In this document: piece after piece, positions 19,029 to 23,159 of the stretch
Position numbering within the stretch: position 1 is the stretch's first letter
Layout of the letters: each line of letters starts with the position of its first letter
IMG/VR virus record: IMGVR_UViG_3300022872_000001
Span: 32,001 to 96,000 of that record
Reading direction: 5' to 3' (one strand)
DNA length: 64,000 nt
From: a virus
Made by a program: the position numbers and the translations under genes
Notes under the pieces: model-generated
Told to the model about the DNA's origin: nothing
The model's database searches: none
What the model saw: only the letters and a program-made list of their open reading frames with translations

Positions 19029-19385
19029 ATGAATGTGAACAAGCAATTATTGGAAGAGGCTGCCTCGGCCGCAGGGCATACACTAGTATGGTCATACGAC
19101 GAGAGTTTATGTTTTCTTACCGATACCTGGGAGGGATGTTTTAACCATGACGAACCGTGGAACCCTATTCGTATGGATGCAGATGCCTTTCGTTTGCAGG
19201 TGAAACTTAAGATGTTAGTAATCTGGCTACCCCTACACGTGCGGGTTAGGTGTGGAAATATACATGCCCTAGAATTTATAGGAAGTTATGCTAATAGCGA
19301 AGATCCTTATAGAGACGCTGCACGCAGAGCTATTACACGGTGCGCAGCTAGGTATGCACCCACTAAGGAATTACACAATGCTTGA
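19029..19385 (+). CDS. hypothetical protein, 118 aa
   Basis: AAGGAG SD; WNPIRMDADAFRLQVKL phage-type motif; AGTAAATA at 19003. Confidence 0.75.
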   Translation: MNVNKQLLEEAASAAGHTLVWSYDESLCFLTDTWEGCFNHDEPWNPIRMDADAFRLQVKLKMLVIWLPLHVRVRCGNIHALEFIGSYANSEDPYRDAARRAITRCAARYAPTKELHNA

Positions 19386-21651
19386 CTCAAGTTTCACCTA
19401 TAAATTCGATAGTCCCAACGCCTATGATTTAACTCTTAAGCGTTGCTCGAATTGGAAGAATGAAAAGAAACGTGTGCTAATCATTATGCAGACGGTCGAT
19501 GGCCGCGATCTTCGCGCTAAGGCAATGCTGGGTGATAAGTTGACTAGTAATACAATGCATAATGCAATTAAGTACGCGCGCGGTATTGCTCGTACCTACA
19601 CAGAAAAAGGATTAAACGATGTAGCCTTTAGTGTTGTGCCCTTTCACCAATACAAACATCTCCATTTACCCTCCGGTCCTCGTCGCGCTGCCGAAGCTGC
19701 ATTCGCTCACCACGTCCACGCAATGATTGGTAAACTTAAACCAACGCACATATTGGTTTCAGGTGATAACGCAATGCATGCCTTGTTTCCAGCTATTGAT
19801 AAGCATGCATACAAACGCGGTTGGGTTCATGAATTACAATCAGGTGATCTTAAGGTAAAGGTAGTCTCCACGCTTGACATGGCACGCTTACTGGAGAAGC
19901 AAGGTCAACACGCAAACCTACTTGGATTTTGGTGCCGACATTTATGTAATCTTTTGATTGGTCGATTACCTCATGACCTTTCTCATGTTAAAGCAAAGCC
20001 TATCTATGTTAATACTCTGGAGAAGTTCGATAAGGTCATGGATCTCGTTGAATCTTCCTCTATCGTGGCAACGGATACGGAAACTGCCAACCTTACGGTA
20101 CTGCACAATAAAATCTATACAGTGCAGTTCGCTAGTGATAAATTGCCGTTAAATGGTTACATCATTCCATACAAGCATCCTCAGACGCCTTGGAATAAGG
20201 AAGAATTAAAACACGTCAGAAAACGTCTAACGAAGTTCTTTAGCAGTAAGAAAGGTCCAGAACTTGTTACGTTTAATGGTATGTTTGATTTACGTGTCAT
20301 TCGTCGGCAGTTCAAGCTTCCAATTATTTGGAATCGTGTTTGGGAAATTACAGCAGGTGAACACAACCTGGATGAGAATATTTCCTCCCTCTCCAGCTTC
20401 GGTGCCAAACCTGGTGGCTTGGCTGCTGTCTATTGTTCGTATGGTAATGAATTCTACTACACAGCCGAGTTCGGTAAGGATGAGAGAGCCACAATCTCTC
20501 ACGTAAATATTAATAAGAACAAAGGCTTTCAGTTTTACGCAGCTACTGACGTTGTATCTATTCTAGCGCTTAGAAATGCTCAGATTGAAAAAGCTGACCA
20601 TCAGTTTATCCAAGGTAAGAAGTACGGCCCGTATTTTAAACGCCATGTACTCTACCAAATGAGTGACACTGCGCATCAACTATCCCACTTAGCTGAGGAT
20701 GGTTCCTATGTTGACGCAAAATACCTGCGACATCTGATTGGTGCAGATTCTCCCTTGCGAAAGGAGTTGCGAGTCCTTGATAAGGATATGCGTAACTTCC
20801 CTGATATGCAGGAAGCTAATCGTGTACTTCTGGCTAATTCGGGTTTGAAATCCAAAGGCTTATTCGGTGCAGCTCGACAAGCCACTAATTGGATGCTTCG
20901 CGTATCTAAGACAGCGCATTTACGTATTCTGTTCTTTGATGTAATGAAGCTGGAAGCTGTATCTGAAACTGACGGTGGGGAACCTTCTACAGATAAGGAA
21001 TTCGTTAATGAATACAAGGATACCAACATCGTTGTGGACGCGTATGGTCAGTATGCAGCCTTAGCCAAGCTACTGAGTACCTACGCTAAGGGTTGGTACA
21101 AAAAACTAACTACATCAAAGGATTCGATTACTGACGGTCATCTTAGACCTCAGTACACCTTCTTTGATGTAGATACAGGACGTTTGGCTTGTAAGAATCC
21201 TAATCTGCAAACAATTCCATCCAGGTCTAAGCTAGCTAAGATCATTAAACGGATGTTCGTTGCTCCTCCGGGTGCCATGCTCGTAAGGTTCGATTATAGT
21301 GCCCATGAAGTTCGTGGTTGGTCGATTGTTAGTGGTGATAAGGCATTAGCCGAAGTGTTCCGAATGGGTCAAAAGCTTCGGCAGATCTTCATTCAAGATC
21401 CTTCGGAAGCAAATGCCAAAGCTGTCAAAGAAAAGGGCGATGTTCATCTTTTGAACGTAAAAAGATTATTTAATAAAATCGTCGAAAAGAAACATCCATT
21501 ACGTGATGCGGTCAAAGCTGTTATCTTTGGACTTTTATACGGAAAGTCTACCCAATCATTAGGTGTCGATACTAAGAAGGGTGACCTGGATGCTATCAAA
21601 GGCACGCTTAATGCCTTGCGTAAGGAACTCAAACAATTGGAGAAGGTATGA
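19378..21651 (+). CDS. polA: family A DNA polymerase, N-terminal part (UDG-like domain, 3'-5' exonuclease, motifs A and B)
   Basis: ATDTETANL, FNGMFD, YAATD exo motifs; TGRLACKNPNLQTIP; RFDYSAHEVR (motif A); RDAVKAVIFGLLYG (motif B); start re-called to MLDSSF. Confidence 0.93.
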   Translation: MLDSSFTYKFDSPNAYDLTLKRCSNWKNEKKRVLIIMQTVDGRDLRAKAMLGDKLTSNTMHNAIKYARGIARTYTEKGLNDVAFSVVPFHQYKHLHLPSGPRRAAEAAFAHHVHAMIGKLKPTHILVSGDNAMHALFPAIDKHAYKRGWVHELQSGDLKVKVVSTLDMARLLEKQGQHANLLGFWCRHLCNLLIGRLPHDLSHVKAKPIYVNTLEKFDKVMDLVESSSIVATDTETANLTVLHNKIYTVQFASDKLPLNGYIIPYKHPQTPWNKEELKHVRKRLTKFFSSKKGPELVTFNGMFDLRVIRRQFKLPIIWNRVWEITAGEHNLDENISSLSSFGAKPGGLAAVYCSYGNEFYYTAEFGKDERATISHVNINKNKGFQFYAATDVVSILALRNAQIEKADHQFIQGKKYGPYFKRHVLYQMSDTAHQLSHLAEDGSYVDAKYLRHLIGADSPLRKELRVLDKDMRNFPDMQEANRVLLANSGLKSKGLFGAARQATNWMLRVSKTAHLRILFFDVMKLEAVSETDGGEPSTDKEFVNEYKDTNIVVDAYGQYAALAKLLSTYAKGWYKKLTTSKDSITDGHLRPQYTFFDVDTGRLACKNPNLQTIPSRSKLAKIIKRMFVAPPGAMLVRFDYSAHEVRGWSIVSGDKALAEVFRMGQKLRQIFIQDPSEANAKAVKEKGDVHLLNVKRLFNKIVEKKHPLRDAVKAVIFGLLYGKSTQSLGVDTKKGDLDAIKGTLNALRKELKQLEKV

Positions 21652-22055
21652 ATGACATCGTAGTGGTTAAGCCAGGTGAAGGGGTCATAATTGATCCAGC
21701 TGCTAAACTTCAATACACCAAACACTTTCCAAATCGCTATACGGTAGTAGCAACTCCTTCAGATTACCATGTAGCTTATAAAATCTATGAAATCGCTGGT
21801 TGGGCAGGTAAGACTTCGGATAAGAATCTGGATACTCCTTTATACGGCGAAGACTTCACTGAAGGTATCGATGGGATTGATACGGTTATCAGTGGTTCGG
21901 TAAAATGGGATGGTTGCAGCAATTGGAGTTTTGATGAGACTGCACGCGGCCATATGACCCACGGATGTAGCAAAGAGGACATATTGAGTATAGGCCTTAT
22001 TCTTGGCGAATGCTGGGAATGGACGAAAGAACTTTGCCCTAATTGGAGTTACTAA
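21648..22055 (+). CDS. hypothetical protein between the two polA parts
   Basis: ATGA overlap with the polA-N stop; GSVKWDGCSNW motif. Confidence 0.8.
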   Translation: MNDIVVVKPGEGVIIDPAAKLQYTKHFPNRYTVVATPSDYHVAYKIYEIAGWAGKTSDKNLDTPLYGEDFTEGIDGIDTVISGSVKWDGCSNWSFDETARGHMTHGCSKEDILSIGLILGECWEWTKELCPNWSY

Positions 22056-22288
22056 TGGAATCACCTTCTCTAATTAGTTTTCTGATATACCTAGCAACCA
22101 GTGCGTATATAATTGCGGTCTATTTTGCAGGTGGGCGTCGCCGCAACGATAATTCGTTATCGTGCATATTTATGGCCATCTCCATATTTTGCATATTCAA
22201 CATCTTTATGCCTTTGAATCTGGCAGTGTGGTTAGCCATATCATGTATTTGTTGGTTCGTACTAATCATGAGGAATAGAAATGGCTAA
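22055..22288 (+). CDS. small multi-pass membrane protein between the two polA parts
   Basis: GGAG SD, TAATG coupling, three hydrophobic segments. Confidence 0.7.
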   Translation: MESPSLISFLIYLATSAYIIAVYFAGGRRRNDNSLSCIFMAISIFCIFNIFMPLNLAVWLAISCICWFVLIMRNRNG

Positions 22289-23159
22289 GGTACTAGAGAA
22301 ACCTGTTGAACTCACAGGTAAAGCAAGGCAAAAACGTATTGAAGAGATCAAAACTTTAATTAAGAAGGAAGAGAAAGCTTTAGCTGTTTTGATTGCCGAA
22401 GACCGTACACCTTATGCGCAGGACATTGTTGATCGTATGTTCACTGAATTCCCTAAGGGTGCGCAGTGGACTAACAAGATGAAGAAATTGGCGGAGGAAG
22501 AATTCTATGTCTTCTCACCAATCGGACGCAAGCGTAATCTCTTCGCAGCAATGACTCAAGATCAAGCTATTGTTGCACGCCAGGTTCGCCGTGGCACCAA
22601 TGCTCCTATTCAAGGTTTCGCTTCGGAGATTAGCGTTAAGGCTGGTCGCGTGGTTTATGAAACATACTACGAACACTTGCCGACCTTCTGTGAATTGATG
22701 GAGGTAGACTACGATCCGTGGGAATGGCGTGTACCTTACAATCGAATCGTACATGATGCTTCCTATTACGCCGTGCCCTTCAAAATGGTAATACCTTTCG
22801 TGCATATCCTGCAATACGATACTACATACGGAATTACCAAACGTTACAAAGAGGAATTCGGTGTTGCCTTTACAGTAGAGCCAGAGATCGAGATCGACTT
22901 TGGTGCTCGTGATGACAATACATTCGGTTGGGACTGGTCCATTCCTTCCATTGTAGATTCCATGGATAAGTCCTTGCAAGATATGATTGAATTGAAAATC
23001 CTTAGAGAAAATAAGGAGAAGATCATGAAACAAATTTTCAAGCCATGGGCGAATAAGAAGTTTCGCCATTACCTGCAAGAACATTTCCCCCTACTCGGTG
23101 TTACCGATTTAGATAAACAAATTGTGGACGCCATTCGCCCCATTTATAAGAAAGAATAA
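22281..23159 (+). CDS. polA: family A DNA polymerase, C-terminal part (motif C)
   Basis: SPIGRKRNL, RRGTNAPIQGFASE, RIVHDA (motif C); own SD GAGGA. Confidence 0.93.
   Translation: MAKVLEKPVELTGKARQKRIEEIKTLIKKEEKALAVLIAEDRTPYAQDIVDRMFTEFPKGAQWTNKMKKLAEEEFYVFSPIGRKRNLFAAMTQDQAIVARQVRRGTNAPIQGFASEISVKAGRVVYETYYEHLPTFCELMEVDYDPWEWRVPYNRIVHDASYYAVPFKMVIPFVHILQYDTTYGITKRYKEEFGVAFTVEPEIEIDFGARDDNTFGWDWSIPSIVDSMDKSLQDMIELKILRENKEKIMKQIFKPWANKKFRHYLQEHFPLLGVTDLDKQIVDAIRPIYKKE

What the first reader, a model, noticed from the sequence alone, without database searches (positions are those of the whole stretch)
21540..22400. DNA polymerase A split in the fingers by two unrelated genes, with an in-frame 6-bp direct repeat at the junctions
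Seen: the N-part stops ~35 aa after motif B (...ELKQLEKV*), and the C-part (MAKVLEKPVEL...) has its own SD. Between them lie a soluble ORF and a membrane ORF, translationally coupled, with no endonuclease, intein or intron features. AAGGTA (codons AAG GTA) sits at 21643-48, immediately before the TGA, and again at 22287-92; deleting between them restores an in-frame ...LEKVLEKP.... Both ends are amphipathic K/E/L helices. Established: phage Aeh1 nrdA works as a split enzyme after an insertion, and T4 gene 60 is joined by ribosomal bypass at matched codons before a stop. Inference: a naturally heterodimeric PolA zipped by a coiled coil at an insertion-tolerant site. Less likely, the parts are rejoined by DNA excision or RNA processing.
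Basis: partly seen in the sequence, partly recalled or inferred. Interest (0 to 1): 0.75.

Follow-up and report, generated by a model that had tools for sequence, protein, structure and literature searches.

The report
Phage DNA polymerase in two pieces
An uncultured giant phage encodes its only DNA polymerase as two separate genes, cut at the tip of a helical hairpin in the enzyme's fingers. Many related phages share this cut, and here two small unrelated genes sit in the gap, so it is a good new example of a known phenomenon and not a new principle.

Summary
The split is real. PolA-N (19378-21651, 757 aa) carries the exonuclease domain and motifs A and B. PolA-C (22281-23159, 292 aa) carries motif C. 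Between them lie ORF1 (135 aa, phrog_33479) and ORF2 (77 aa, an orphan membrane protein). All four genes are joined by overlapping stop and start codons.

Seventeen nearer relatives, four cultured phages and 13 IMG/VR contigs, have one contiguous gene. Metagenomes, however, hold many N-part (~755 aa) and C-part (~290 aa) pairs cut at the same place. In some the two genes simply overlap, and in others a DUF7487 homing-endonuclease-like gene lies between them.

The cut falls in the loop of a length-variable two-helix hairpin after motif B. Split forms have longer arms: median 78 aa against 50 aa.

The window's closest relatives are already split but show no ORF1 homologue. The split is therefore older than the two inserted genes.

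The AAGGTA repeat is present but is best read as chance. The partner C-part of the closest relative has E-V where the window has K-V.

No intron, intein, bypass signal or second polymerase was found.

The best reading is a two-subunit PolA with two hitch-hiking genes. This makes it a new member of a known kind, alongside T4-like gp43A/B and the split PolA of marine phages.

The parts
19378..21651 (+). PolA-N gene (757 aa): 3'-5' exonuclease domain, thumb, palm motif A (21286-21315), fingers motif B (21502-21549) and the first hairpin arm
   Evidence: The ORF is. Pfam gives DNA_pol_A 115 bits on profile positions 30-230 and exo 22.7 bits. The start was set by alignment with relatives.
21580..21648 (+). 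First (N) hairpin arm: the last 23 codons of PolA-N, an amphipathic helix with a 3-4 hydrophobic spacing
   Evidence: It aligns to arm 1 (residues 755-772) of the folded contiguous relative. Only 0.7% of shuffles reach its hydrophobic moment.
21639..21646 (+). Shine-Dalgarno sequence (GGAGAAGG) for ORF1, lying inside the last codons of PolA-N
   Evidence: Read directly from the sequence. The matching L-E-K codons are kept near the end of the N tails of related split forms.
21643..21648 (+). AAGGTA, copy 1, immediately before the TGA stop
   Evidence: Judged to be chance.
21648..22055 (+). ORF1, 135 aa, soluble, with conserved Cys and His residues; member of phrog_33479; function unknown
   Evidence: PHROG match at E 6e-24. 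There are 14 metagenomic homologues. A free-standing homologue exists in Ralstonia phage RP12, ORF172. The model has pLDDT 77 and no clear fold match.
22055..22288 (+). ORF2, 77 aa, with two or three hydrophobic segments; an orphan small membrane protein
   Evidence: The sequence is. It matches only itself among 1.84 billion representative proteins. It has a Shine-Dalgarno sequence at 22045-48.
22270..22274 (+). Shine-Dalgarno sequence (GAGGA) for PolA-C, 6 nt before the ATG
22281..23159 (+). PolA-C gene (292 aa): second hairpin arm, the rest of the fingers, palm motif C (22743-22769) and the C-terminal helices
   Evidence: Pfam gives DNA_pol_A 32.9 bits on profile positions 236-311. It is 48-54% identical to the C-terminal third of contiguous PolA of cultured jumbo phages.
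22287..22292 (+). AAGGTA, copy 2 (codons 3-4 of PolA-C)
22314..22406 (+). Second (C) hairpin arm, residues 12-42 of PolA-C, preceded by an 11-residue head
   Evidence: It aligns to arm 2 (residues 779-801) of the folded relative.

Best explanation
The window comes from an uncultured jumbo phage of the phiRSL1 / BcepSauron / Motura group. Its replicative family A DNA polymerase is made as two polypeptides.

The cut lies in the loop of a two-helix hairpin. This polymerase lineage carries that hairpin as an insertion in the fingers, just after motif B. PolA-N supplies the exonuclease domain, motifs A and B, and the first arm. PolA-C supplies the second arm, the rest of the fingers and motif C. 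Neither piece can polymerise alone. The active enzyme must therefore form by association of the two chains. The lengthened antiparallel arms and the native fingers-palm interface would hold them together.

The split is inherited and older than this phage. It is shared with the closest metagenomic relatives. In the wider group it is tied to selfish DNA: DUF7487 homing-endonuclease-like genes occupy exactly this site in some relatives, and the whole hairpin is swapped along with the split.

In this phage the junction between the two cistrons has since taken in two small genes that are not endonucleases. ORF1 belongs to a small jumbo-phage family of unknown function, and ORF2 is an orphan membrane protein. 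They ride in the polymerase operon, and overlapping stops and starts pass ribosomes from gene to gene.

Shown here: the gene anatomy, the conservation of the cut, its position in a predicted hairpin loop, the longer arms, and the absence of an intron, an intein or a second polymerase. Inferred: that the two chains assemble and are active, that the arms pair with each other, and the order of events.
For: 1. Anatomy and coupling.
2. Division of catalytic motifs. Pfam profile positions 30-230 fall in PolA-N and 236-311 in PolA-C. Motifs A and B lie in N and motif C in C.
3. Only polymerase found. The 192-kb record (82% complete) holds no other PolA, and no PolB or Pol III alpha.
4. Synteny. Cultured relatives have helicase, then PolA, then small genes, then primase, with one PolA gene of 1050-1075 aa. 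The window's downstream 148-aa and 233-aa genes are syntenic with theirs.
5. The same cut elsewhere. Stand-alone C-parts of 285-296 aa begin 35-50 aa before the conserved motif. In L021, L045/L091 and L054/L055/L108 the two genes overlap or abut with nothing between them.
6. Structure. In the folded contiguous relative (pLDDT 88; Klenow TM-score 0.80) the arms are residues 755-772 and 779-801 and the loop is 773-778. The window's break aligns to that loop.
7. Arm length. The distance from motif B to the next conserved motif is 73-87 aa (median 78) in 12 split pairs. It is 48-73 aa (median 50) in 87 contiguous proteins, Mann-Whitney p 8e-9, not corrected for phylogeny.
8. Order of events. The closest relatives are split: the N region is 81-87% identical and the C-part 74-76%. 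No ORF1 homologue exceeds 56% identity, and none is on a contig of matching length. No ORF1 or ORF2 homologue lies within 8 kb of PolA in about 100 related loci. The 12 split rows around the window can form one clade, AU p 0.44.
9. Selfish DNA at the site. Homologous DUF7487 / phrog_3339 genes (35% identical, E 2e-69) lie on the minus strand at the same spot in L030 and L062/L102. L102 and its contiguous twin L058 are 96% identical in the body of the C-part but 39% in the hairpin. P0067 and L100 are 98% against 44%.
10. Composition. The insert's G+C content equals that of its flanks.
11. Independent assemblies. Identical ORF1 and PolA-C proteins occur on 8 and 7 contigs from JGI and Logan.
12. 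Precedent. Split gp43A/B of T4-like phages co-purify and are active, and a Pfu PolB split at the finger tip is fully active (PMC2988022, PMC3061061).
Against: - There is no biochemical evidence that the two chains associate or polymerise.
- No multimer prediction could be run, so pairing of the two arms is inferred from a contiguous relative.
- The C arm's amphipathicity is weak.
- The record is 82% complete, so a second polymerase in the missing part is not excluded.
What lies between their halves rests on contig-length matching and on the lack of close ORF1 homologues.
- The tree needs at least 17 changes between split and contiguous states. The history is therefore complex, and a single old split in the window's clade is merely not rejected.
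- Some 'stand-alone' metagenomic C-parts could be gene-calling artefacts.
Confidence: 0.8

Rival explanations
1. A recent insertion caused the split. A mobile two-gene cassette landed in a contiguous PolA gene of this phage, and AAGGTA is its target-site duplication.
For: The hexamer flanks the insert exactly and in frame. The strict coincidence has a probability of about 0.2%. The 17 nearer relatives first examined are contiguous.
Against: - The closest relatives already have separate N- and C-parts with the same N tail. The partner C-part starts with E-V, so the repeat is not shared.
- Relatives with directly overlapping halves show that the cut exists without any insert.
- Both arms carry extra residues that a simple insertion would not add.
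- The insert has the same G+C content as its flanks and encodes no transposase, integrase or endonuclease.
- A looser count finds such repeats in 26% of random window pairs.
- Copy 1 overlaps the Shine-Dalgarno sequence of ORF1, which by itself constrains that sequence.
Confidence: 0.07
2. The two parts are rejoined into one chain, by DNA excision between the repeats, by RNA splicing, or by ribosomal bypass as in T4 gene 60.
For: Matched codons precede a stop and recur at the landing site, and deletion between them keeps the frame.
Against: - Rfam finds no intron in 21000-23000 at E up to 1. The same tool finds a group I intron in relative L030.
- The 639-nt gap is filled by two ribosome-loaded ORFs, one of them with conserved homologues.
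- Neither junction shows unusual RNA structure: z-scores are -0.25 and +0.30.
- No recombinase was seen in the operon.
- PolA-C has its own Shine-Dalgarno sequence and a Met that is conserved in relatives. In relatives the halves sit in different frames with stop/start overlaps of three different kinds.
- Known bypasses span tens of nucleotides (own knowledge).
Confidence: 0.03
3. The gene is broken and decaying, or the arrangement is an assembly artefact, and replication relies on another polymerase.
For: The record is a metagenome assembly and only 82% complete.
Against: - Both parts keep all catalytic motifs. They are as similar to relatives (about 50-58%) as those relatives are to each other.
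- The window's end branch in the tree is short: 0.10 against a median of 0.17.
- No PolA, PolB or Pol III alpha occurs elsewhere in the record.
- Identical proteins were recovered on 7-8 contigs from two sources.
- Both flanks are syntenic with relatives.
- The same split occurs in many independent assemblies.
Confidence: 0.03

Closest known systems
Split family B DNA polymerase gp43A/gp43B of T4-like Aeromonas and Acinetobacter phages (Petrov et al. 2006, as described in PMC3061061 and PMC2988022)
   Same: The replicative polymerase is cut in the tip of the fingers, at a length-variable two-helix region. The two cistrons lie from 2 bp to about 3 kb apart. In some members a homing-endonuclease gene lies between them. 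There, the halves co-purify and are active.
   Different: It is a different polymerase family (B, not A) with an unrelated fingers architecture. Here the cut lies in a lineage-specific hairpin after motif B. The intervening genes in the window are not endonucleases, and no biochemistry exists.
Split nrdA of Aeromonas phage Aeh1 with mobE between the halves (PMC2988022)
   Same: An essential enzyme gene is fractured at a selfish-DNA site, and the halves reassemble without splicing.
   Different: In Aeh1 the endonuclease is the intervening gene and the likely cause. The window holds no endonuclease, and its split predates the present insert. Relatives L030 and L062 match the Aeh1 pattern more closely.
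Split family A DNA polymerases of marine phages: OM43 phages MEP401/402 with a small unknown ORF between the halves (PMC10580990), and an uncultured cyanophage lineage (bioRxiv 10.1101/325100)
   Same: A family A phage polymerase is encoded as two genes, in one case with a small ORF of unknown function between them.
   Different: These are small T7-like or Zobellviridae-like phages and a different PolA clade. The papers as read here do not give the cut position, so the same site was not shown. There the authors left open whether an intron is involved. Here an intron was tested for and not found.
Engineered split Pfu PolB (PMC3061061)
   Same: A stop/start overlap (ATGA) near the finger tip gives two coupled cistrons. 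Their products form a 1:1 complex with wild-type activity. Relative L021 has the same ATGA arrangement.
   Different: It is a laboratory construct in family B. There the split, together with a point mutation, widened substrate tolerance. No such effect is known here.
Translational bypass of T4 gene 60
   Same: Matched codons lie before a stop and at a downstream site.
   Different: The gap is 639 nt with two translated ORFs, against 50 nt in gene 60. There is no stem-loop at the take-off site, and the matched codons are not conserved in the closest relative.

Membership tests
Family A (Pol I-type) DNA polymerase | Pfam DNA_pol_A match that covers the polymerase core | tested here: met
   PolA-N scores 115.1 bits on profile positions 30-230. 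PolA-C scores 32.9 bits on positions 236-311, alone just under the 34.3 cut-off. The own-genome search gives the same two pieces.
Family A (Pol I-type) DNA polymerase | Catalytic motifs A, B and C are present | tested here: met
   Motif A is at 21286-21315, motif B at 21502-21549 and motif C at 22743-22769. Motif B aligns to Klentaq motif B.
Family A (Pol I-type) DNA polymerase | Klenow-like fold with a 3'-5' exonuclease domain | tested here: met
   The model of contiguous relative L084 (51% identical to the window's parts) matches Klenow fragment 1d8y at E 6e-24, target TM-score 0.80. The window's exonuclease Pfam match is 22.7 bits against a cut-off of 23.6.
Natural two-cistron (split) DNA polymerase | Both halves are conserved as separate genes in several diverged genomes | tested here: met
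   There are 12 N/C pairs plus loci L021, L045/L091 and L054/L055/L108.
Natural two-cistron (split) DNA polymerase | The halves associate and are active together | not testable with these tools
   This needs co-expression, pull-down and a primer-extension assay.
Gene fractured by a free-standing homing endonuclease (Aeh1 nrdA/mobE type) | An endonuclease gene lies between the halves | tested here: not met
   In the window, ORF1 and ORF2 have no endonuclease match in Pfam, PHROGs, NCBIfam or PADLOC. No DUF7487 remnant is present. The feature is met in relatives L030 and L062/L102.
Intein or split intein | Hint/intein blocks at the break, with a nucleophile at the +1 position of the C-part | tested here: not met
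   Pfam finds only DNA_pol_A and the exonuclease domain in both parts. The termini align to hairpin arms of contiguous relatives with nothing left over for an intein.
Group I or group II intron | A match to an Rfam intron model between the exons, with exon sequence preserved | tested here: not met
   There is no Rfam match at E up to 1 in 21000-23000. As a positive control, RF00028 scores 54.2 bits in motif B of relative L030.
Programmed translational bypass (T4 gene 60 type) | A short non-coding gap, a take-off stem-loop and conserved matched codons | tested here: not met
   The gap is 639 nt and coding. The fold z-score at the take-off site is -0.25. The matched codons are not conserved in the closest relative.

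The most novel reading that the evidence does not exclude
The split is not just tolerated damage but is used by the phage. There are two versions of this reading. In one, the open fingertip with its long paired arms changes what the polymerase accepts. This phage carries a 7-deazaguanine DNA-modification cluster elsewhere in the window, and a fingertip split widened the substrate range of Pfu PolB. In the other, the arms are a docking site, and the co-translated ORF1 and membrane protein ORF2 are polymerase partners, for example tethering or regulating the replisome. The evidence excludes neither version and supports neither directly.
Probability: 0.07. Interest if true: 0.75.

Novelty: new member of a known kind. 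Interest (0 to 1): 0.4.

Why it matters
It shows that a family A replicative polymerase tolerates a permanent break in the fingers between motifs B and C, as family B enzymes are known to do. It also shows that one phage lineage has kept this state over long divergence.

The comparative set found here is a natural series for studying how selfish DNA rewrites the subunit structure of an essential enzyme, and how the enzyme compensates through longer paired arms. The series includes:
- contiguous twins;
- overlapping halves;
- halves separated by homing-endonuclease-like genes;
- halves separated by unrelated cargo.

It also marks a safe split site for engineering two-piece Pol I-type polymerases. 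It assigns a likely role and a target site to the uncharacterised DUF7487 family.

Tried and rejected
- The DNA between the halves in the closest relatives (P0093/P0002, P0094/P0003) could not be read.
- **Close-relative search.** A search of IMG/VR with PolA-C alone found nothing. DNA-level search of GenBank phages found only a 113-nt match.
- **ORF1 function.** All of these gave no family beyond phrog_33479 and no convincing fold. The best result was Z 4.9, a weak GNAT-like arrangement that I do not trust.
  - Pfam, PADLOC and NCBIfam
  - Foldseek against PDB and the exhaustive VIA-align search
  - ESM Atlas
- **ORF2.** It has no relative in 1.84 billion representatives.
- **L107.** The 337-aa ORF between the halves in L107 has no family.
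- **PolA-C against solved structures.** PolA-C alone has no phmmer match to solved structures.
- **Signals at the junctions.** The promoter and terminator scan shows nothing notable there.
- **Considered and rejected:** target-site duplication, intron, intein, bypass, excision, pseudogene and assembly chimera. Reasons are given under the rival explanations and the membership tests.


Full report
**What is there.**
The + strand of 19378-23159 holds four tightly packed genes.
- PolA-N runs 19378-21651 (757 aa). Its start was set by alignment with relatives.
- ORF1 runs 21648-22055 (135 aa).
- ORF2 runs 22055-22288 (77 aa) if the ATG is used. The longest frame starts at a TTG at 22043.
- PolA-C runs 22281-23159 (292 aa).

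The junctions are an ATGA overlap, a TAATG overlap and an 8-nt overlap. Each downstream start has a Shine-Dalgarno sequence 5-6 nt upstream.

Pfam puts PolA-N on DNA_pol_A profile positions 30-230 (115 bits), with a weak 3'-5' exonuclease match. It puts PolA-C on positions 236-311 (32.9 bits). Motifs A and B are in N and motif C is in C. N ends 33 residues after the motif-B YGKS. The hexamer AAGGTA is at 21643-48 and 22287-92 as stated.

**Where it comes from.**
The window is part of a 192,170-nt IMG/VR virus record judged 82% complete. Its nearest cultured relatives, at 48-56% protein identity, are these jumbo phages:
- BcepSauron/BcepSaruman
- BCSR5
- phiRSL1
- Motura

All four have a single PolA gene of 1050-1075 aa in the same neighbourhood, with a helicase upstream and a ~230-aa gene and primase downstream. 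Thirteen IMG/VR relatives found first are also contiguous.

The own record has no other PolA, and no PolB or Pol III alpha.

**Where the cut lies in the protein.**
In the alignment the break falls inside a segment after motif B that varies greatly in length. It is absent in Motura, 36-50 aa in most relatives and about 100 aa in L018.

An AlphaFold2 model of the contiguous BcepSauron-type protein has mean pLDDT 88, and 74-82 in this segment. It shows two helices, 755-772 and 779-801, joined by a six-residue loop. The whole model matches Klenow fragment with a target TM-score of 0.80. The window's N tail aligns to the first helix and the C head to the second, so the cut is in the loop.

By alignment of motif B to Klentaq, and from my own knowledge of Pol I helix names, the hairpin sits between helices O1 and O2 of the fingers.

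**The cut is shared.**
A search limited to proteins of about the C-part's length returned dozens of stand-alone proteins of 285-296 aa. They begin with Met 35-50 residues before the conserved motif that follows the hairpin, and several are on contigs of 20-250 kb.

Scans of metagenome and IMG/VR contigs gave DNA for several cases.
- In L021 the two genes overlap as ATGA.
- In L045/L091 they overlap as TAATG.
- In L054/L055/L108 the start follows the stop by one base.
- In L062/L102 a 394-aa ORF lies between the halves on the opposite strand.
- In L030 the intervening ORF is 395 aa, also on the opposite strand.
- In L107 an unknown 337-aa ORF lies between them.

The 394- and 395-aa ORFs match Pfam DUF7487 and the PHROG 'homing endonuclease' family 3339. 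They are 35% identical to each other.

**Split forms differ from contiguous ones in a telling way.**
The distance from motif B to the next conserved motif is 73-87 aa (median 78) in 12 split pairs. It is 48-73 aa (median 50) in 87 contiguous proteins. This test is not corrected for relatedness. Both arms are therefore longer when the loop is missing.

Two near-identical pairs show how the state changes.
- L102 (split, with the endonuclease-like gene) and L058 (contiguous) are about 95% identical in flanking DNA and 96% in the body of the C-part, but only 39% in the hairpin.
- P0067 (split) and L100 (contiguous) are 98% against 44%.

The heads of split forms resemble one another more than they resemble the hairpins of their twins. 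The hairpin and the split therefore travel together as a cassette. That is what co-conversion during endonuclease-driven homing would give. This last step is inference.

**History in the window's lineage.**
A tree of the C-part body, with the hairpin columns left out, places the window with P0002, P0003 and P0004, all split. That group sits inside a group of mostly split forms. The 12 split rows can form one clade, AU p 0.44, while the whole tree needs at least 17 changes of state.

The closest relatives have the same N tail as the window. Yet the best ORF1 homologue anywhere is 56% identical, and none is on a contig of matching length. No ORF1 or ORF2 homologue lies near PolA in about 100 related loci. 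The insert has the same G+C content as its flanks.

I conclude that the split came first and the two genes arrived later. The caveat is that the relatives' DNA could not be read.

**The inserted genes.**
ORF1 belongs to phrog_33479, of unknown function. It has a free-standing homologue in Ralstonia phage RP12 and 14 metagenomic homologues, with invariant Cys, His and Trp positions. Its model (pLDDT 77) has no convincing structural neighbour.

ORF2 has two or three hydrophobic segments and no relative in 1.84 billion representatives. Neither gene matches defence or endonuclease models.

**The hexamer.**
A 6-nt direct repeat between two 39-nt windows at this spacing occurs in 26% of random trials. 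The exact post-hoc configuration has a probability of about 0.2%.

Copy 1 lies inside the Shine-Dalgarno region of ORF1. The L-E-K codons that carry it recur near the end of the N tails of related split forms. Copy 2 depends on a Lys that is Glu in the two closest C-parts.

I read the repeat as coincidence, not as a scar or a bypass signal.

**Rejoining mechanisms.**
- Rfam finds nothing in 21000-23000. It does find a group I intron in motif B of relative L030, so the negative result carries some weight.
- Pfam shows no intein.
- The RNA at both junctions folds no better than shuffled sequence.
- In relatives the halves lie in different frames, with three different kinds of stop/start contact. 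That fits coupled translation of two proteins, not frameshifting into one.

**Comparison with what is known.**
- Split PolB genes of T4-like phages are cut in the finger tip, lie 2 bp to 3 kb apart, sometimes hold an endonuclease gene, and give active two-chain enzymes (PMC3061061, PMC2988022).
- A Pfu PolB split by an ATGA overlap at the finger tip is fully active (PMC3061061).
- Split family A polymerases have been noted in OM43 phages, with a small unknown ORF between the halves, and in a cyanophage lineage. Neither has a mechanism (PMC10580990, bioRxiv 10.1101/325100).
- I found no paper on a split PolA in the phiRSL1-like jumbo phages, nor any paper on DUF7487.

The finding is therefore a new member of a known kind. 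The useful additions are the exact site, its recurrence, the longer arms and the link to DUF7487 genes.

**Verdict.**
- The two genes are passengers in an older split and did not cause it.
- Interest is moderate.

Noticed in passing
L030:6325-6545 (contig OUWB010007277.1, 249 kb): A group I intron (RF00028, 54.2 bits) interrupts motif B of this relative's PolA, between the FG and the YGK of the motif. The same gene also has the hairpin-tip split with a DUF7487 gene. Proteins P0058-P0060 start at the same motif-B position, which suggests the intron is common in another subclade.
   Followed up: partly
L022:2698-6360 (also L079, P0209, P0167, P0198): This is a contiguous PolA of 1221 aa with an in-frame insertion of about 180 aa. 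The insertion carries HNH_3 and AP2 domains (residues about 738-843) between motifs A and B. It is a third kind of selfish insertion in this polymerase lineage. Whether it is an intein was not tested.
   Followed up: partly
L107:6963-7976: In a distant relative (35% identical C-part) the same hairpin-tip junction holds a 337-aa ORF on the same strand. It has no match in Pfam, PHROGs or NCBIfam.
   Followed up: partly
window 21635-21642 and 22041-22048: The octamer AATTGGAG, which carries the Shine-Dalgarno sequence, precedes both the ORF1 and ORF2 starts at nearly the same distance. It may simply be this phage's preferred ribosome-binding context.
   Followed up: no
window 19029-19385: A 118-aa gene (phrog_5086, unknown function) overlaps the start of PolA-N by 8 nt. 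The long upstream extension of the PolA-N frame to 19288 is probably not translated.
   Followed up: partly
window 21648-22055 (alignment A5): The ORF1 family keeps an invariant block with four Cys, one His and several Trp in its C-terminal half. This pattern could bind a metal.
   Followed up: partly
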